Assembly: GCA_043753735.1 (NCBI GenBank)
Contig: JAYUWD010000207.1
Span: 1-45,007 of the forward strand
DNA from: Gemmatimonadaceae bacterium
GTDB lineage: Bacteria; Gemmatimonadota; Gemmatimonadetes; Gemmatimonadales; Gemmatimonadaceae
DNA: 45,007 bases
Direction: 5' to 3'
Shown piece after piece: positions 32,770 through 40,531 of this stretch. The notes beneath the pieces were generated by a model. It saw only the letters and a list, made by a program, of their open reading frames with translations. It was not told the origin of the DNA and searched no databases. The translations under genes and the position numbers were made by a program. The stretch's first letter is position 1, and the number at the start of each line of letters is the position of its first letter.

Positions 32770-34602
32770 CTACTTCTCTCTTGCGGCTCCCGCCTTGACC
32801 AGTCGCGGCTTGCTGTTCCCGGGGCTCACTTCATACAGCGGCCCATCCAACATGTCGTTCACGAGTGGGATCTGCACGGTTGGTCCGGCGCGCAATGAAC
32901 CCGCGAGACGAAACGGATCCGCGTTGGCGATGGCGATGGTGTACCCCAAATCGGCGAGCGATGCTGCCGTCACGCGACTGAGAGGCATGCCGCCGGTCAC
33001 GGCGTAACCCTGCATCAGCTCACGACCGAAAACCGAATTGCGCCAGTGAGCGTCGCGCGTGCCAGCGCCACCCTGATTCTCGACCGGCACGACGCTGCCT
33101 GAAAAGATGGTGCCGCCGATGGCTGGGAATTCCACACGCGCGCGGTCGCCAATGAAAAATGGATCGCTGGTACCGGCGCCGGTGAGAAGCGTACGACGAT
33201 AACTCCATAGTGTGCCGATACCGAGTACGTGCCCCATTTCGTGCAGGACGACGTCATCGATGGTGCCGCTGGTGAGGAGCCCCGGCACGTCGGCCTCGTC
33301 GAACTCCATCACGCCAACGATGGTAAGGCGCGAGGCCGTGTTGACGTAGCATGGACCGGCCTGTGCCAAAATTTTCCCCGCGCCATCGATGGGTCCGATG
33401 CGCGCGAAGACGACAAGGTCGCTGACGATCTCGTTCATGGCCGGGGTCCAGTCGGCGCAGGCGCTGTCAGGCGCCGTAACGCGCACGTCATGCACATGTC
33501 CAACGATGATGGTACGCCACTTGGCCGCCGCCTTCGTGAACGCCTCACGCTGACGCTGCGTACCACCAGTGCCGATGAAGCGGATATCGATATTGAACGC
33601 CGACGACGTGGCGGTCGCGGCAAACGCGACGGACTTGCCCGGAACAAGCGAACTGGTCGCGACCAGCGTCTGCGCTGTCCCACTTCCGAGCGTCCAGCTG
33701 CTGACAAAGGCGACGCCGGTGGCCGGATCCGTCTGCGACGTGCCGCCGGTGACCGTGCCGGAGTTGAGACCCGGCGTGAATGTCACGGGCACATTGCCGA
33801 CCGGATTGTTGTACTGGTCGACGACGCGCACGCCCGGGGGCATGTTGATCGATGCACCGGTGACTCCCTGCTGGTTATCCCCACCCGCTTTGACAAGATC
33901 GGCCGGTGCTGCTGGTAATGCGGTGGCTGAGAACGCTGCCTGCAACGAGCCTGTGACCGTTGCGCGGGCAAACTGTTGACCGGAGCTGATACCTAATTTC
34001 CAGGAAGTCGCCGTGGCGACGCCCTGTGTGTTGGTGGTTTGCTGCGCGCCGTCGATCGTGCCGCCGTCCGAGGTGCTGAAAGTGACGGGTACGTTGGGGA
34101 TCGGATTGGCGTAGCTGTCTTCGACACGCGCCGACGGCGCCACGGAAACTGGGCTGTTCACGACAGCCTGTTGGGCGTCGGCGCTGAGGCGAACGACTCG
34201 CGCCACGGGCCCCGGCGCGGCGTCGACGGTAAAGGTGACCGGCGCGCTAATCCCTTCGGCTGTGGCCTGGAGCGTTTGAACTCCGGCCGTCGTGCCGAGC
34301 GTCCATCCGCCGGAGGTGGCGTCGCCAAAGTTGGTGGTTCGAATGGAATCGTTGACCACTTTGCCGCTACCCGCCGTCACACGCCAGCGCACCAGAACGT
34401 TTTTCATCGAGTTGCCTTTGCCGTCGAGCACTTTGACGGTAGGAACCGTGCCGACGATCGTCGCAACGGTGGCCGTCGAGGACTGACTCGTCGTCGCAGC
34501 GGCGGTAGTCGGAACCGGAGGGTCCCCAGTGCAGGCCGAAAGCACAAGCACACCGACGGCGAACGCACGAAGACCGGAGCGGCGAACAGAAGTGTTGGAC
34601 AT
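32770..34602 (-). CDS. Lipoprotein with three Ig-like repeats and leishmanolysin-like (M8-type) metallopeptidase
   Basis: LSAC lipobox; three V.V.D..GNP..NV.V.F-type repeats; HEMGHVLG...GGAGTRDAHW...ELM...LSRVT...LADLGY. Confidence 0.85.
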   Translation of the reverse strand: MSNTSVRRSGLRAFAVGVLVLSACTGDPPVPTTAAATTSQSSTATVATIVGTVPTVKVLDGKGNSMKNVLVRWRVTAGSGKVVNDSIRTTNFGDATSGGWTLGTTAGVQTLQATAEGISAPVTFTVDAAPGPVARVVRLSADAQQAVVNSPVSVAPSARVEDSYANPIPNVPVTFSTSDGGTIDGAQQTTNTQGVATATSWKLGISSGQQFARATVTGSLQAAFSATALPAAPADLVKAGGDNQQGVTGASINMPPGVRVVDQYNNPVGNVPVTFTPGLNSGTVTGGTSQTDPATGVAFVSSWTLGSGTAQTLVATSSLVPGKSVAFAATATSSAFNIDIRFIGTGGTQRQREAFTKAAAKWRTIIVGHVHDVRVTAPDSACADWTPAMNEIVSDLVVFARIGPIDGAGKILAQAGPCYVNTASRLTIVGVMEFDEADVPGLLTSGTIDDVVLHEMGHVLGIGTLWSYRRTLLTGAGTSDPFFIGDRARVEFPAIGGTIFSGSVVPVENQGGAGTRDAHWRNSVFGRELMQGYAVTGGMPLSRVTAASLADLGYTIAIANADPFRLAGSLRAGPTVQIPLVNDMLDGPLYEVSPGNSKPRLVKAGAAREK

Positions 34603-34740: not shown

Positions 34741-36075
34741 ATGCGCATTCCTGTTGAGAGTTACCGCCTCCCGAACGGCCTGCACGTGGTGCTCTCAGAG
34801 GATCACACAGCGCCGATCGTCGCGGTCAATCTGTGGTACCATGTTGGCTCTGCAAACGAGCGGCTTGACCGCACGGGCTTTGCCCATCTGTTCGAACATA
34901 TGCTCTTCCAGGGCTCGGCAAACGTTGCGGCCAACGAACACTTCGAGCTTGTGCAGCGGGCCGGGGGCACGCTGAACGGTTCCACCTGGCTCGACCGAAC
35001 AAACTATTACGAGACGGTACCGTCCAGCCAGCTCGCGATCGCACTCTGGCTCGAAGCGGATCGCATGGGGCGGATGCTGCCAGCGTTGACGCAGGTGAAG
35101 CTCGATACGCAACGTGATGTAGTGAAGAACGAGCGGCGTTGGTCGGTGGATAACCAACCGTATGGCACTTGGTGGGAACGGTTGCCGGCGTTGTGCTTCC
35201 CTGAAGGACATCCGTTCCATCATTCGCTGATCGGGTCGATGGAACATCTGTCCGACGCCTCACTCGACGACGTCGCCGATTTCTTCCGGACGTTCTACAC
35301 CCCCGATAACGCAGTGCTCACGATTGCCGGTGATTTTGAGCACAGTGATACGGTGCGACTGGTGTCGGAATATTTTGGCGGAATTGCCCGCGGCGGCGAT
35401 CGTCCGCCACTGCGAGATATGTCGGTAACACCAGTTTTCGGGACCACCCTACGGCAAGTGGTCGAAGATGCGGTGGCGTTGCCACGATTGCTCGTGGCTT
35501 GCCGCACTCCAGTTTTTGGTACCGATGGCTACTACGCGGCGAGTCTTGCCGCAGCGGTACTCGGTCTGCGCACGGGAAGCCGTCTCGAACAGTCGCTGGT
35601 GCGTGGACAGCGTGTGGCGTCGAATGCGACCGCGTTCACCTACGACCTCGCGAAAGGCAGCGACCTGCTGGTGGTTGACGTAACCGCGCACCCCGATGTG
35701 ACGACAGACACGCTCGAACGCGCGGTGCTTGCCGAATTCGATCGCATTCACAGCTTCGGTGTGACCGAAGCGGAAGTTGCGCGCGCGCGTGCGCTCATCG
35801 AAACGAGTTTTGTCACGAGTCTGCAATCCGCAGCCGAGCGCGCGGATCAGCTGTCGCGATTTGCGACGTACTTCGGTGATGCGACGTTGGCCAATGAACA
35901 GGTGTCGCGCTATCAGGCGACGACTGCGGCGGATGTGAGTGCGCTCGCTCGCGACCGACTCGGCCCCAACAATCGCGCGCTGCTGTTGTTTGTACCTGCT
36001 CCGGCGTCGAGCGACGCGGAAAGTGGCACCGCCGGGGCATCGAACGACGATGCGATGCTCGAGGTGGGCGCATGA
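34741..36075 (+). CDS. M16 family zinc peptidase, catalytic subunit
   Basis: LPNGL, VGSANE, TGFAHLFEHM (HxxEH), NGST..DRTNY, VKNERR. Confidence 0.93.
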   Translation: MRIPVESYRLPNGLHVVLSEDHTAPIVAVNLWYHVGSANERLDRTGFAHLFEHMLFQGSANVAANEHFELVQRAGGTLNGSTWLDRTNYYETVPSSQLAIALWLEADRMGRMLPALTQVKLDTQRDVVKNERRWSVDNQPYGTWWERLPALCFPEGHPFHHSLIGSMEHLSDASLDDVADFFRTFYTPDNAVLTIAGDFEHSDTVRLVSEYFGGIARGGDRPPLRDMSVTPVFGTTLRQVVEDAVALPRLLVACRTPVFGTDGYYAASLAAAVLGLRTGSRLEQSLVRGQRVASNATAFTYDLAKGSDLLVVDVTAHPDVTTDTLERAVLAEFDRIHSFGVTEAEVARARALIETSFVTSLQSAAERADQLSRFATYFGDATLANEQVSRYQATTAADVSALARDRLGPNNRALLLFVPAPASSDAESGTAGASNDDAMLEVGA

Positions 36076-37541
36076 GTGCCGACACGAGTGAAGCAATGCG
36101 CAACGCCGCGCCGCCGCGACCCACGGCTGCGCCCCCTCGTCCGTATCATTTCCCGCTGTTCGAGACGCGCATTCTCGCCAACGGGTTGCGTGTGATCGTG
36201 TCGCCGGTGTCGGCGTATCCGGTGGTGACGATTCTCGCAGTGGTCGAAGCCGGAGCGACGCGCGATCCACGCGAAGCGGAAGGGCTCGCACAGATGACGA
36301 CGCGCGCGCTGGCTGAGGGCACGCGGAACATGAACGCACTCGAGTTGGCCGAACGGCTCGAGACATTGGGTACGACACTCGACACCGGTGCCGATTGGGA
36401 TTCCGCGATCGTGCAACTCACGTCGCTGGCATCGCGTGTCGAAGATGCGATTGCCGTGCTGGCGGAAGTGTTGCGCTTCCCGGCATTCCCCGACGATGAA
36501 CTCGATCGGTTGCGCGCCGAACGTCTGGCCGATCTCGCGCAACTGCGCGCAGAACCGCGGGGTCTCGCCGATGTGTTCTTTTCGCGTTTGTTGTACGTGT
36601 CCGACTCCCGCTTTGCGAGGCTCGCGGGGGGCGACGAGCAGAGTATCGGGCAGACCACCCGCGAACGCATTCAGTCGTATCACAGCGAGTACTATCGTCC
36701 GAACTCGACCGCACTGATGGTGGTGGGTGATATCTCGGTCGACGACGCCGTGCGTCATGCGACAAAGTATTTTGGCGAATGGACAGGGAGCGCGCCCAAT
36801 GTCACAGAGCCGCTCGACGTTGCGCGTTATCAGGAGCCGCGGGTGCATATCATCGACAAGTCGGATGCGCCGCAGTCGGAGTTGCGCGTTGGGCATGTCG
36901 CCGTGCCGCGTTTGCATGAGGACTATTTTCCTCTTGTCGTGATGAACGCAATTCTGGGTGGACTTTTTTCGTCACGACTGAATCTCAATCTTCGCGAGGT
37001 GCACGCGTACACGTACGGCGCACACTCCGCATTCGATTGGCGTCGCGCCGCGAGTCCGTTCGAGATTTCAACGGCGGTGGAGACCGCAGTCACTGCGGAT
37101 GCCCTGACGGAGATTCAGGTCGAGTTCACGCGCATTCGCGAAGCACCGGTAACGGACGCCGAGCTATCGCTCGCAACCGACTATCTGGTGGGCGTCTTTC
37201 CGATTCGATTCGAGACAACCGCAGAAGTGGCAGGCGGACTCGCGAACGTGGAAATCTTCCGTCTGCCGACCAATTATTTCGACAACTATCGGGACCGTGT
37301 ACGCGCGGTGACAGCGGCCGATGTCCTGCGCGTCGCGCAGCATCATCTCGACCCGAGTCGGTTGCAGGTGGTCGTTGTCGGAGATGCTTCGGTCATTCGG
37401 GATCCGCTCGCTGCGCTCGGACTTGGCCCAGTCACCGTGTACGATCCCGCGGACGCCGATGCGCCAACGGGCGGCATGCCGCATGTCGATGCGCCAATCG
37501 TTGTTCTGACACAAACGTCGGCTTCCATTTCTGTTTCCTGA
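36072..37541 (+). CDS. M16 family peptidase, non-catalytic subunit
   Basis: M16 fold motifs but HxxEH replaced by QMTTR; ILGG.FSSRL..NLRE...YTY (R/Y pair); ATGA overlap. Confidence 0.9.
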   Translation: MSADTSEAMRNAAPPRPTAAPPRPYHFPLFETRILANGLRVIVSPVSAYPVVTILAVVEAGATRDPREAEGLAQMTTRALAEGTRNMNALELAERLETLGTTLDTGADWDSAIVQLTSLASRVEDAIAVLAEVLRFPAFPDDELDRLRAERLADLAQLRAEPRGLADVFFSRLLYVSDSRFARLAGGDEQSIGQTTRERIQSYHSEYYRPNSTALMVVGDISVDDAVRHATKYFGEWTGSAPNVTEPLDVARYQEPRVHIIDKSDAPQSELRVGHVAVPRLHEDYFPLVVMNAILGGLFSSRLNLNLREVHAYTYGAHSAFDWRRAASPFEISTAVETAVTADALTEIQVEFTRIREAPVTDAELSLATDYLVGVFPIRFETTAEVAGGLANVEIFRLPTNYFDNYRDRVRAVTAADVLRVAQHHLDPSRLQVVVVGDASVIRDPLAALGLGPVTVYDPADADAPTGGMPHVDAPIVVLTQTSASISVS

Positions 37542-37555
37542 CTCTCTCCCGTCCC

Positions 37556-38248
37556 GTGCCGCAGCCCAAGTCGCCCAAGTCGCCGTTGTACGAAGTCCGT
37601 CGTTCGCGCATCCAGGGACGCGGTGCATTTGCCATCCGCCCGATCCGCAAAGGTCAGGTCGTCGACGAATACATCGGCGAGCCGATCACACATGAAGAGG
37701 CCGACCGTCGCTACGACGACAGCGAAGGACGTCATCACACCTTTCTCTTCATTCTCGACGACGACACCGTGCTCGATGCGCGCAAGCAGGGCAGCGATGC
37801 GCGCTATATCAATCATTCGTGCGATCCGAACTGCGAAACGGAAATCGACGACGGCCACATCTGGATCAAGGCGATCAAGCCGATCAAGGCTGAAACGGAG
37901 CTCGTCTACGACTACCGTTTTGACTGGCAGGACGAGTACGAGCCCGACGACGTACGCTATTACGCCTGCCGCTGCGGGTCGGCCAACTGTCGCGGGACAA
38001 TCCTTCGGGTACCGGTCTATCTGAGGCCGACCGTGCGGAAGTGGCTGGCGGGGGAAGACGTGGCCAAGCCACGCAAGCCGAAAACGGCGGCGGCAAAAAA
38101 AGCTGCTGCCGCGAAAAAAGGCGCGAAAAAGGCCGGAAAAAAAGTGGTGAAGAAAGCGACCAAGGTGGCAAAAAAGACGTCTACCAAGACGACCAGAAAG
38201 GCCCCGACAAAGCGCGTGAAGAAAGCGACGAAGCGGGCCCGAGCGTGA
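37556..38248 (+). CDS. SET-domain lysine methyltransferase with post-SET and histone-H1-like tail
   Basis: IQGRGAFA, EYIGE, ARYINHSCDPNC, ELVYDY, post-SET CRCGSANCRG, then a 60-aa Lys/Ala-rich tail. GTG 37556. Confidence 0.92.
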   Translation: MPQPKSPKSPLYEVRRSRIQGRGAFAIRPIRKGQVVDEYIGEPITHEEADRRYDDSEGRHHTFLFILDDDTVLDARKQGSDARYINHSCDPNCETEIDDGHIWIKAIKPIKAETELVYDYRFDWQDEYEPDDVRYYACRCGSANCRGTILRVPVYLRPTVRKWLAGEDVAKPRKPKTAAAKKAAAAKKGAKKAGKKVVKKATKVAKKTSTKTTRKAPTKRVKKATKRARA

Positions 38249-38793
38249 ACGACAGTCCCGGGCAGCTTTCGAGCACCCGCGTCTACACCGGCCGCATCAT
38301 TTCACTCGACGTAGACGAGGTCCGCTTCCCGGACGGATCGACGGGCTCGCTGGAAATGATCCGTCACCCGGGCGCGAGCGCGATTGTCCCACTGCTCAAC
38401 CCGGAGGCCGACGATCCGGAGGTGTTGCTCATCAGACAGTACCGCTACGCCGCTGATGGCTACCTGTATGAAGTGCCGGCCGGCCGCTTGGACGCGGGGG
38501 AATCCCCGCTGGAATGCGCCAAGCGTGAATTGCGGGAGGAAACCGGGTACAGCGCGACGACCGTCGAACCGCTGTTCACGATGTTCACCACTCCGGGCTT
38601 TACCGACGAGAAGATCCATCTCTTTCTCGCCACTGGGTTGATGGCCGGCGAAAGTGCTCGCGAGGCGGACGAATTCATGGAGCTCGTGCCAACCAAGCTT
38701 TCGCGCGCGCTGTCCATGATAGAGCAGGGGGAAATCCAGGATGCCAAAACGGCGCTGGCTCTGCTTTACGCCGCTGGGTTCCGGCTGAACTGA
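38245..38793 (+). CDS. Nudix hydrolase, ADP-ribose pyrophosphatase-like
   Basis: RQYRY...EVPAGRLD.GE...CAKRELREETG Nudix box, TPGF.DE, IQDAKT; GTGA overlap with the SET gene stop. Confidence 0.92.
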   Translation: MNDSPGQLSSTRVYTGRIISLDVDEVRFPDGSTGSLEMIRHPGASAIVPLLNPEADDPEVLLIRQYRYAADGYLYEVPAGRLDAGESPLECAKRELREETGYSATTVEPLFTMFTTPGFTDEKIHLFLATGLMAGESAREADEFMELVPTKLSRALSMIEQGEIQDAKTALALLYAAGFRLN

Positions 38794-39149: not shown

Positions 39150-39791
39150 ATGGCCGAACTGGCTCGTACGCACAAGACCAACCAGACTCTCGCACTCCCG
39201 GTTCGCGAACAGCTGCGCACCTTGGACGACGGTCAAGTCGTGTCGGCCTTCCTCGCGGGAGAGGAACGGGCGTTCGAGGAGCTCGTGGACCGGTATCAAG
39301 GCCGTCTGCTGAACTTCGTGTACCGCACGATTGGAGATCGGGACCGCGCCGAAGACTTGGTGCAGGAAGTGTTCATCCGCGTCTATCGCCACATCGGACG
39401 CTTTGACCGATCCAAGAAGTTCTCGACCTGGATTTACACGATCGCATCGAATCTTGGCAAAAACGAGCTTCGGAACCGCTCGCGGAACCCGCTGGTGCTC
39501 TTTCAGGCTATCAGAGCCAAGTTCGAGGACGAGGACCGGCCGCTCCAGTTCGAGGACGTGCATACGCGTCCGGATGACCTGTTTCGTAAGCGTCACCTGC
39601 GGGAGATGGTGGAGCAGTCCGTAGGCAAGCTTCCGACGCATCACCGAGAGGTGTTTGTGCTTCGTGAGCTGGAAGGCAAGTCGTACGAGGAAATCGCCGA
39701 AATCACTGGCGTGAACCTTGGCACAGTAAAGTCGCGCCTCAACCGCGCGCGCACTGCCTTTGCGGAGATCATCGCGCCGCTGGTTCGGTAA
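39150..39791 (+). CDS. ECF-type RNA polymerase sigma factor
   Basis: AEDLVQEVF, FSTWIY.IA.N, LRE.EG.SYEEIA, GTVKSRLNRAR; AGGAGG RBS. Confidence 0.96.
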   Translation: MAELARTHKTNQTLALPVREQLRTLDDGQVVSAFLAGEERAFEELVDRYQGRLLNFVYRTIGDRDRAEDLVQEVFIRVYRHIGRFDRSKKFSTWIYTIASNLGKNELRNRSRNPLVLFQAIRAKFEDEDRPLQFEDVHTRPDDLFRKRHLREMVEQSVGKLPTHHREVFVLRELEGKSYEEIAEITGVNLGTVKSRLNRARTAFAEIIAPLVR

Positions 39792-39818
39792 GGGACTGTA
39801 AATTAACGTTCGGTAGAT

Positions 39819-39850
39819 CTGGCAACGTTCGTCTTGGCGAACGTTGCCGG
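39819..39850. repeat. Perfect 11-bp inverted repeat between sigma and anti-sigma genes
   Basis: GGCAACGTTCG-TCTTGG-CGAACGTTGCC. Confidence 0.6.
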
Positions 39851-39922
39851 AACTGGCGTGATACGGCAGGGTATGTTGCTCAGCGTCCGACTTTGGGCGA
39901 GCAATTCCCCGACCCGTCCCCG

Positions 39923-40531
39923 ATGGAATGCAGACGTTTTCGCCAGCATCACTTGGCCTACCTCGACGATACACTGTCGGGTGACATGACGACCGAGGCG
40001 CAGCAGCACATTCTCACATGCAATACATGCGCTGCGCACGACACGCTGGTTCGGCGCTCGCTGATGCTCGCTCGCAGCATGCCGACCATCGAGCCTTCAA
40101 CAGAATTTCAGCGTAAACTCCGCGATCGTCTGGCGGTATGTCGCAACGAAGTAGGTAGTGACGGGAGGTCAAATTTTGGACGCGACCGTGCGTTCCTGTC
40201 GATCTTTCCGACGCAGCGAAGCCTTGCAGCAACCCCCAGATTTGCGCTGTCGAAATCGTTTCGCTCTCCCCGCGCCTTCGCTGCTGTTGCGGCAGGTGCC
40301 GTACTGGGTACCATGGTCTGGCGCGGTCTGTCGGCTGGAGTGACCCCAGTGATTTCCATGCAACCGGTCGTGGCATCACAGCCCGTCTCCACTCAGCCGA
40401 CACCCATGTTTTCGCCAGCGCTCATCAGCGTGATGTCGACAGGAAATCCAGTGTGGCCTGCAGCGATGATGATCGAAGAGGCGCCAACGCAATTTGTGAG
40501 TGCGGATTTTCGGCTGGTGGCAGATCGATAG
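39923..40531 (+). CDS. Zinc-binding (zf-HC2/ZAS) anti-sigma factor
   Basis: MEC...YLD..L....HILTCNTC (HxxxCxxC), one TM segment, follows the ECF sigma. Confidence 0.88.
   Translation: MECRRFRQHHLAYLDDTLSGDMTTEAQQHILTCNTCAAHDTLVRRSLMLARSMPTIEPSTEFQRKLRDRLAVCRNEVGSDGRSNFGRDRAFLSIFPTQRSLAATPRFALSKSFRSPRAFAAVAAGAVLGTMVWRGLSAGVTPVISMQPVVASQPVSTQPTPMFSPALISVMSTGNPVWPAAMMIEEAPTQFVSADFRLVADR

What the first reader, a model, noticed from the sequence alone, without database searches (positions are those of the whole stretch)
37556..38248. SET-domain lysine methyltransferase fused to its own histone-H1-like tail
Seen: a complete SET domain (NHSC, ELxYDY) with a Zn-binding post-SET (CxCx4C), followed by KPRKPKTAAAKKAAAAKKGAKKAGKKVVKKATKVAKKTSTKTTRKAPTKRVKKATKRARA, a 60-aa tail with over 20 Lys and no acidic residues. 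No secretion signal is visible. Established: AKK/PKK-rich tails condense DNA in histone H1, chlamydial Hc1/Hc2 and mycobacterial HupB, and a chlamydial SET protein has been reported to methylate histone-like proteins. Inference: a writer and a histone-like substrate or DNA anchor in one polypeptide, i.e. a candidate bacterial chromatin-methylation system (automethylation tuning DNA binding, or tethering the enzyme to the nucleoid).
Basis: partly seen in the sequence, partly recalled or inferred. Interest (0 to 1): 0.75.

Follow-up and report, generated by a model that had tools for sequence, protein, structure and literature searches.

The report
SET methyltransferase with two-part basic tail
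A bacterium (likely Gemmatimonas) encodes a small enzyme of the histone lysine-methyltransferase type whose basic tail has a highly conserved proline-x-lysine-proline root and a freely varying lysine-rich end; the end likely tethers the enzyme to DNA and the root lysine may be a self-methylation site, and the genus also encodes an all-lysine/alanine histone-H1-like protein that would be a natural target.

Summary
In detail: a 230-aa ORF (37556-38248, +) with an intact MLL/SET1-like SET and post-SET domain and a 60-aa tail (22 Lys, 5 Arg, no Asp/Glu). It is a resident gene at a fixed locus in the genus, not a one-off fusion. The tail has two parts. Its root (P172-x-K174-P175; K174 in 120 of 121 homologues) is conserved and predicted ordered. 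The rest varies from 10 to 71 aa among genus orthologues and keeps only its charge. Basic extensions at either end recur across this bacterial SET clade. Lysine-rich segments are rare in this genome (13 ORFs) and include a SWIB protein, an HTH protein and a stand-alone H1-like protein found in 29 of 30 genus genomes. Best reading: a cytoplasmic lysine methyltransferase, likely tethered to nucleic acid by the polycation, possibly self-methylating at K174, acting on H1-like tails in trans. No activity, substrate or localisation is shown. Tail automethylation has a precedent (chlamydial NUE), and this scan noted tailed SETs on other DNA. New variant of a known kind; interest 0.5.

The parts
37556..38248 (+). 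SET-domain protein-lysine methyltransferase gene, 230 aa (P0001)
   Evidence: the start agrees with homologues beginning MPQPK/MPKPK
37616..37915 (+). SET domain (aa 21-120): GxG, Y39, NHSC (37811-37822), ELVYDY (37898-37915) with Y118 and Y120; aa 38-135 net charge -16
   Evidence: fold match to MLL1 SET Z 18.3, rmsd 2.1 over 140 aa
37967..37990 (+). post-SET CxCx4C (C138, C140, C145), predicted Zn site with C89
   Evidence: all four Cys invariant in 140 aligned sequences
38015..38047 (+). lineage-specific helix (aa 154-164) after the post-SET
   Evidence: predicted at pLDDT 97; Y155, L156, W163, L164 invariant in 121 of 121; strong matches in only 2 of 64 genera sampled
38066..38080 (+). tail root KPRKP; K174 (38075-38077) is the candidate self-methylation or docking lysine
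   Evidence: K174 120/121, P172 118/121, P175 119/121; K174 in 21 of 22 genus loci that cover it; block pLDDT 92 and 94 in two models
38081..38245 (+). variable Lys/Ala/Thr polycation, predicted partly helical then disordered
   Evidence: pLDDT 87, 66, then about 50
34741..37541 (+). context: two M16 peptidase genes upstream, same strand
   Evidence: synteny
38245..38793 (+). context: NUDIX hydrolase (best NCBIfam model NudE, below cut-off) whose GTG overlaps the SET stop by 4 nt
39150..40531 (+). context: ECF sigma factor and zf-HC2 anti-sigma-like gene
   Evidence: sigma synteny

Best explanation
This is a SET/post-SET protein, predicted to be an active cytoplasmic lysine methyltransferase, whose variable basic tail likely holds it on nucleic acid while the conserved root lysine K174 possibly folds back as a self-methylation or regulatory site, and whose likely targets are lysine-repeat nucleoid proteins encoded elsewhere in the genome. 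Shown: intact motifs, MLL-like fold, acidic core with basic flanks, conserved root, variable distal tail, fixed locus, and a genus-wide stand-alone H1-like protein and SWIB protein with lysine-rich tails. Inferred: (1) SAM-dependent mono- or dimethylation (Tyr at the F/Y-switch position Y118; rule recalled); (2) the distal tail binds DNA electrostatically, as lysine-repeat tails do in HupB, Ku and actinobacterial TopA; (3) K174 docks on the domain and is methylated in cis, as with NUE K209/K210 or the Clr4 autoregulatory loop; (4) the acidic groove takes basic K/A-repeat substrates, first of all the 97-aa H1-like protein.
For: Catalytic residues are invariant or nearly so in 140 sequences; fold matches MLL1/MLL3 SET. 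A close orthologue (67% or more over the SET region) is in 22 of 24 genus genomes besides the window's own, always beside the M16 peptidase genes and, where the contig reaches, NUDIX and sigma: a resident gene. Charge is kept while sequence is not: core net median -4, flanks +15 to +40 in 121 homologues; 64 of 121 also have >=5 K in an N-terminal extension; 150 of 167 clade members are net positive after the post-SET. Strict K-rich tails need 26 changes on a 167-row tree and occur at either end, which fits a position-independent tether. K174 is the only fixed tail lysine and lies in a segment with block pLDDT 92-94. The genome's few K-rich ORFs include a SWIB protein and a Cro/C1 HTH protein. 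A stand-alone 89-123-aa protein with 35-49 K is found at one locus in 29 of 30 genus genomes. In 8 of 14 betaproteobacterial-type loci tested, the related SET gene is divergent from a type IA topoisomerase. Literature: HupB's tail is needed for nucleoid binding (PMC5676037, passages); lysine repeats in TopA, Ku, HupB (PMC7398561, passages); NUE automethylates C-terminal K209/K210 and this raises its activity (PMC2904774, passages); cpnSET binds Hc1/Hc2 and methylates Hc1 (as reviewed in PMC3980110, parts 1-2 of 5).
Against: No activity, substrate, binding or localisation was measured. The local neighbours (peptidases, NUDIX, sigma) are not chromatin genes, and the H1-like and SWIB genes lie on other contigs. 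The H1-like gene has its own neighbour resembling a class I SAM methyltransferase in 29 of 30 loci (below cut-off), a rival writer. SWIB proteins carry K-rich tails also in genomes with no SET match (for example G178, G096), so such tails do not need this enzyme. Four of 21 orthologues have only 10-17 aa of tail and one (L023) lacks the P-x-K-P root. A second, tail-less SET paralogue exists in the same genome. High pLDDT does not say where K174 sits; no coordinates were available. NUE did not methylate Hc1.
Confidence: 0.45

Rival explanations
1. The enzyme is cytoplasmic but its targets are not chromatin: the tail binds RNA, ribosomes or polyphosphate, and the substrates are translation or metabolic proteins.
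For: A polycation does not discriminate between polyanions (established). K/R-rich low-complexity regions are also typical of RNA-binding and ribosomal proteins (PMC6821194, passages). The K-rich set of this genome includes an ORF that I recognise as ribosomal S12 (recalled, not scanned), which also holds a PKKP motif. The locus has no chromatin genes.
Against: The tail's xAKK repeats resemble the H1-like and SWIB tails of the same genome. Related SETs pair with topoisomerase genes. P[RK]KP occurs 14 times in about 2,950 rough gene calls, so the S12 match is not distinctive.
Confidence: 0.22
2. One reading: the whole tail is the enzyme's own histone-like substrate, and its multiple automethylation tunes DNA binding of the protein, which itself acts as a nucleoid protein.
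For: 22 lysines lie in cis to an acidic SET groove. C-terminal automethylation is known for NUE. Two orthologue tails match Pfam HC2 weakly (28.4 and 25.6 bits, cut-off 40).
Against: No distal lysine is positionally conserved and tails shrink to 10-17 aa in 4 of 21 orthologues. Methylation keeps the lysine's charge (established), so it would tune binding weakly. A dedicated H1-like protein exists separately.
Confidence: 0.13
3. The distal tail is near-neutral repeat expansion with only a general preference for positive charge, and the P-x-K-P root is a structural cap; neither is regulatory.
For: Length is highly variable (10-75 aa). Many clade members end within 20 aa of the post-SET (43 of 80 loci). 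The paralogue has no tail.
Against: Acidic residues are excluded (median D/E fraction 0) and Lys is at 37% against 2.5% background, in a genome where such segments are rare. A short His-Arg motif is kept inside the flanks of 54 of 122 homologues.
Confidence: 0.13
4. It is a secreted nucleomodulin acting on histones of a eukaryotic partner (alga, protist), and the tail is a nuclear localisation signal.
For: Most characterised bacterial SETs are such effectors (PMC3980110). The closest solved structures are eukaryotic H3K4 enzymes. A T6SS sheath gene is present in 3 of 5 genomes checked.
Against: No SctV match over the cut-off in 5 of 5 genomes (the single hits are probably flagellar FlhA, inferred) and no VirB4 in 5 of 5. 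A one-contig genome without T6SS VipB (G132) keeps the orthologue. Fixed locus and genus-wide retention. The LegAS4 model scores 38 against 550.
Confidence: 0.07

Closest known systems
Chlamydial SET protein (NUE/CT737; cpnSET) with Hc1/Hc2 and SWIB (PMC2904774, PMC3980110, PMC6426960)
   Same: Small bacterial SET protein; automethylation on lysines of a basic C-terminal stretch is shown for NUE; the genome also has H1-like proteins and a SWIB protein.
   Different: NUE is a type III-secreted effector with a short basic stretch. Here the tail is 60 aa, no injectisome gene passed the cut-off, the host is likely free-living (recalled for Gemmatimonas), and a helix plus P-x-K-P root is inserted.
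Eukaryotic MLL/SET1 (KMT2) SET plus post-SET catalytic domains
   Same: Best sequence (E 1e-26) and fold matches (Z 18.3, about 40% identity); same motifs; Tyr at the F/Y-switch position.
   Different: No reader domains or other fused domains; C-terminal helix and tail not aligned to these structures; substrate unknown.
Lysine-repeat tails of HupB, Ku and actinobacterial TopA (PMC5676037, PMC7398561)
   Same: Acid-free K/A repeats appended to a globular domain; likely a DNA tether.
   Different: Here the host domain is a lysine methyltransferase; repeats are degenerate (no PAKK or KAAK) and length varies sevenfold within a genus.
Clr4/Suv39h autoregulatory loop (PMC7700585, abstract only)
   Same: Model for one internal lysine that blocks the active site until automethylated.
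   Different: Docking of K174 in the active site is not shown; it lies C-terminal to the post-SET in an unrelated segment.

Membership tests
SET-domain lysine methyltransferases (PF00856) | Score above the family cut-off | tested here: met
   85.2 bits vs 22.4
SET-domain lysine methyltransferases (PF00856) | GxG, NHxC and ELxYDY motifs with catalytic Tyr | tested here: met
   G21/G23, N86-C89, E115-Y120; invariant or >=90% in 140 sequences
SET-domain lysine methyltransferases (PF00856) | SET fold and Cys post-SET | tested here: met
   Predicted model (mean pLDDT 87.5) matches MLL1 at Z 18.3, rmsd 2.1 over 140 aa
SET-domain lysine methyltransferases (PF00856) | SAM-dependent lysine methylation | not testable with these tools
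   Needs an assay
Histone H1-like Hc2 (PF07382) / histone H1 | Match to the HC2 or linker-histone profile above cut-off | tested here: not met
   No hit for P0001 at E 0.01; two orthologues score 28.4 and 25.6, cut-off 40
Lysine-repeat DNA-binding tails (HupB/Ku/TopA type) | Acid-free K/A-rich low-complexity terminal segment | tested here: met
   22 K, 15 A, 0 D/E in 60 aa; AKK four times, no exact PAKK/KAAK
Lysine-repeat DNA-binding tails (HupB/Ku/TopA type) | Tail-dependent DNA binding | not testable with these tools
   Needs EMSA or localisation
Secreted SET nucleomodulins (NUE, RomA/LegAS4, BtSET) | Type III or type IV effector system in the genome | tested here: not met
   SctV over cut-off 0 of 5, VirB4 0 of 5 genomes; Dot/Icm not searched; T6SS VipB 3 of 5; own genome is 76% complete
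Secreted SET nucleomodulins (NUE, RomA/LegAS4, BtSET) | LegAS4/AnkI family score | tested here: not met
   38.4 bits vs 550
Automethylation-regulated SETs (Clr4, NUE) | A fixed lysine outside the SET domain that enters the active site | tested here: inconclusive
   K174 conserved and predicted ordered; its position relative to the active site could not be read

The most novel reading that the evidence does not exclude
Gemmatimonas runs a self-contained bacterial chromatin-methylation circuit: a SET writer tethered to the nucleoid by its own H1-like tail, held off by an invariant tail lysine (K174) in its active site until automethylation frees it, then methylating a genus-wide stand-alone H1-like protein and the tail of a SWIB protein; a mobile His-Arg motif found at either terminus of orthologues is a second docking element.
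Probability: 0.17. Interest if true: 0.82.

Novelty: new variant of a known kind. Interest (0 to 1): 0.5.

Why it matters
What SET enzymes do in free-living bacteria is open: nearly all characterised ones are host-directed effectors, and the one report of a bacterial histone-like substrate (Hc1) is disputed. Here a candidate writer, a single candidate self-site (K174), natural tail-length variants (10-71 aa), a tail-less paralogue as control and a candidate substrate conserved across a genus with cultured members (recalled) make the question directly testable. The architecture itself is not surprising, since basic extensions are common in this clade.

Tried and rejected
Complex prediction of the SET core (aa 8-165, with SAH and Zn) against the tail root (aa 167-198): no verdict, score 0.29 against a mark of 0.32, controls not folded, no contacts given; not used as evidence. 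RNA runs: no RNA holder listed; not evidence. VIA second look: rows cover mostly aa 1-151, so the helix and tail were barely tested. His-Arg motif docking: a model of an orthologue carrying it gave block pLDDT 49 there, so there is no sign of docking. The motif and KPRKP were sought in all six frames of the genome: only chance-level hits outside this gene; P[RK]KP in rough gene calls points to no substrate class (that caller dropped the SET ORF itself). Promoter and terminator scan was at chance level. Cluster look-up of 10 tailed representatives gave no usable taxonomy. 'The tail is just genome-wide compositional bias' was rejected. 'The tail is a frameshift or read-through artefact' was rejected. 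Literature: 'Gemmatimonas' + 'SET domain' gave 0 papers; searches listed no paper on tailed SETs of free-living bacteria, judged from listings and abstracts' openings; subscription journals are mostly not held, Murata 2007 and Aravind 2011 were seen only as cited, and no supplements were read. The Asgard preprint and the chromatin-evolution preprint were read as passages and did not bear on the tail.

Full report
Observation. The ORF at 37556-38248 (+) gives 230 aa with one Pfam domain, SET at aa 21-120. This is far from chance: Lys is 2.5% in long ORFs of the genome (P 5e-20), and only 13 of 31,429 six-frame ORFs hold a comparable window. The window is a whole contig of a 76%-complete genome. 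Named homologues are labelled Gemmatimonas or Gemmatimonadaceae, the nearest named locus at 91%, so the genus name is inferred.

The enzyme part. Best solved relatives are MLL/SET1 catalytic domains by sequence (E 1e-26) and by fold (model pLDDT 87.5; Z 18.3, rmsd 2.1 over 140 aa). G23, Y39, N86, H87, C89, E115, Y120 and the three post-SET Cys are invariant in 140 aligned sequences, and Y118 nearly so. Residues 38-135 carry a net charge of -16 and the tail +27. An acidic groove for basic substrates is inferred. Tyr at position 118 suggests mono- or dimethylation (recalled rule).

Distribution and locus. All 24 genus genomes had a SET match. Of the 23 genus loci with a close orthologue (own included), all lie beside the M16 peptidase genes, and the 21 complete ones also beside NUDIX and sigma; two genomes (G003, G019; 91-92% complete) showed only the short paralogue as best hit. 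The SET stop lies at or near the NUDIX start in 26 of 26 loci. A PF00856 match was found in 37 of 38 genomes of the family and 15 of 97 of the largest other family sampled in the same order, there with weak scores (tallies include one unpublished genome, G184, whose sequence I left out of the tail analysis). The form with the extra helix and P-x-K-P root gave strong matches in only 2 of 64 genera sampled. The genome also holds a tail-less paralogue ending RGTILGKKR.

The tail has two parts. After the post-SET come 25 conserved residues with a predicted helix, then [KLR]-P-x-K-P. K174 is present in 120 of 121 homologues, P172 in 118 and P175 in 119; the next best lysine positions reach 84 and 76. 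These 121 were ranked with the tail in the query, but the genome-drawn set agrees: K174 in 21 of 22 loci that cover it. Two AlphaFold models give this segment block pLDDT 92 and 94 as coil, which suggests that it packs on the domain; where it packs could not be read. Beyond it, only composition is kept: 18-75 aa in the 121 homologues (median 45) and 10-71 aa in 21 complete genus loci, four of them 10-17 aa. 64 of 121 also have at least 5 Lys in an N-terminal extension. A short motif (HPHVAERHA and variants) lies in the C-flank of 42 and the N-flank of 12 of 122 homologues, never both, and is missing from the window's protein (three N-termini were mis-parsed; kin are not independent).

The wider clade. 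Among 149 representatives at 50% clustering, 131 could be parsed: 24 have a strict K-rich C-tail, 20 another basic tail (a few are mis-parsed fusions), 56 end within 20 aa, 31 are other, and 4 have a K-rich N-tail (biased upward by the query). Among the best 80 of 600 named loci, strict C-tails occur in 6 of 33 Gemmatimonadota and 3 of 47 others (Corallococcus, two proteobacteria), N-tails in 2 Burkholderiales, and 43 of 80 are short. On a tree of 167 SET cores (rows without parsable motifs or with long fusions left out; 141 columns, 73 of 164 forks open), 37 tailed rows need 26 changes against a shuffled mean of 33.6 (0 of 200 as low): some clustering by kin, but many gains or losses. 150 of 167 rows are net positive after the post-SET. 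So the 'fusion' is the long end of a family-wide habit.

Candidate partners. The genome's K-rich set includes a 97-aa protein made almost wholly of xAKK repeats, a SWIB protein with a K-rich N-tail, and a Cro/C1 HTH protein with a K-rich C-tail. The H1-like protein was found in 29 of 30 genus genomes: 89-123 aa, 35-49 Lys, always beside a zinc dehydrogenase gene and in 29 of 30 loci beside a SAM-methyltransferase-like gene. It matches no Pfam or NCBIfam family. SWIB is in 37 of 38 family genomes but also in 60 of 97 genomes of the other family, with K-rich tails where no SET was found; tails therefore do not imply a SET writer. Following a lead from earlier scan notes, I scanned 45 of 144 flanking ORFs from the named loci; 8 of 14 betaproteobacterial-type loci have a type IA topoisomerase divergent from the SET gene, and none of the other 31 ORFs was a chromatin protein.

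Secretion. No SctV over cut-off and no VirB4 in 5 genomes; T6SS VipB in 3 of 5, absent from a one-contig genome that keeps the orthologue. A host-directed role is unlikely but not excluded.

Comparison with what is known. NUE automethylates K209/K210 in its basic C-terminus, which raises activity, but did not methylate Hc1 (PMC2904774, passages); cpnSET was reported to bind Hc1/Hc2 and methylate Hc1 (PMC3980110, parts 1-2). SET, SWIB and topoisomerase co-occurrence was proposed as a chlamydial chromatin set (PMC6426960, passages). Lysine-repeat tails act as DNA tethers and are modified (PMC5676037, PMC7398561, PMC6821194, PMC5931751; passages). Clr4 is the model for autoinhibition relieved by automethylation (PMC7700585, abstract). 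No paper held joins Gemmatimonas and SET domains. Earlier notes of this scan describe tailed SETs and SET plus lysine-rich minigenes in other genomes; these are unchecked AI notes.

Verdict. The protein is a member of the SET family; the tail works like, but is not a member of, the H1/Hc2 families. The tether-plus-trans-substrate model with a candidate self-site at K174 is the best reading (0.45). Every functional step is inferred. New variant of a known kind; interest 0.5, for the testable K174 and the genus-wide candidate substrate.

Noticed in passing
G000:C462:13257-13550 (+); L063:1758-2051: Stand-alone 97-aa protein with 41 Lys and no acidic residue, made of xAKK repeats; no Pfam or NCBIfam match; found at the same locus in 29 of 30 genus genomes. 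Likely an unannotated H1/Hc2-like nucleoid protein.
   Followed up: yes
L063:2574-3437 (-): Gene convergent on the H1-like gene in 29 of 30 loci, with weak matches to class I SAM methyltransferase models (TehB, daptide MTase; below cut-off) and no Pfam match. A possible alternative writer for the H1-like protein.
   Followed up: partly
homologues such as P0063, P0053; L005, L006, L008: His-Arg motif (HPHVAERHA, HPHAAARHA, HVPARHA) sits in either the C-tail (42) or the N-extension (12) of 122 homologues, never both; similar H-x3-RH strings occur in more distant Gemmatimonadaceae SETs. Function unexplained.
   Followed up: partly
G000:C452:924-1352 (-); L062: Stand-alone SWIB/MDM2 protein with a 56-aa K/A/P-rich N-tail; SWIB found in 105 of 201 phylum genomes.
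   Followed up: yes
G000:C442:6012-6335 (-); L064: 107-aa Cro/C1-type HTH protein with an H1-like K/A C-tail.
   Followed up: partly
G000:C446:1284-1721, C262:13495-13773, C91:6497-6796: Three further SET-domain matches in the same genome: one close tail-less paralogue and two divergent ones.
   Followed up: partly
L149, L158, L159, L164, L167, L168, L169, L172: Related SET genes in betaproteobacterial-type records are divergent from a type IA topoisomerase gene.
   Followed up: partly
window 38198-38212: The tail contains RKAPT, a motif that an earlier scan note reported in a basic-tailed neighbour of another SET; seen in only 4 of 121 homologues here (read by eye).
   Followed up: partly
G000:C371:10841-11269 (+): ORF recognised from memory as ribosomal protein S12, with a Lys/Ala/Gly C-terminal extension.
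   Followed up: no
window 32770-34602 (-): 610-aa lipoprotein-like ORF with three Big_1 Ig-like repeats and a leishmanolysin-type (M8) metallopeptidase domain.
   Followed up: no
P0123, P0184: Representatives that appear to hold two SET domains in tandem.
   Followed up: no
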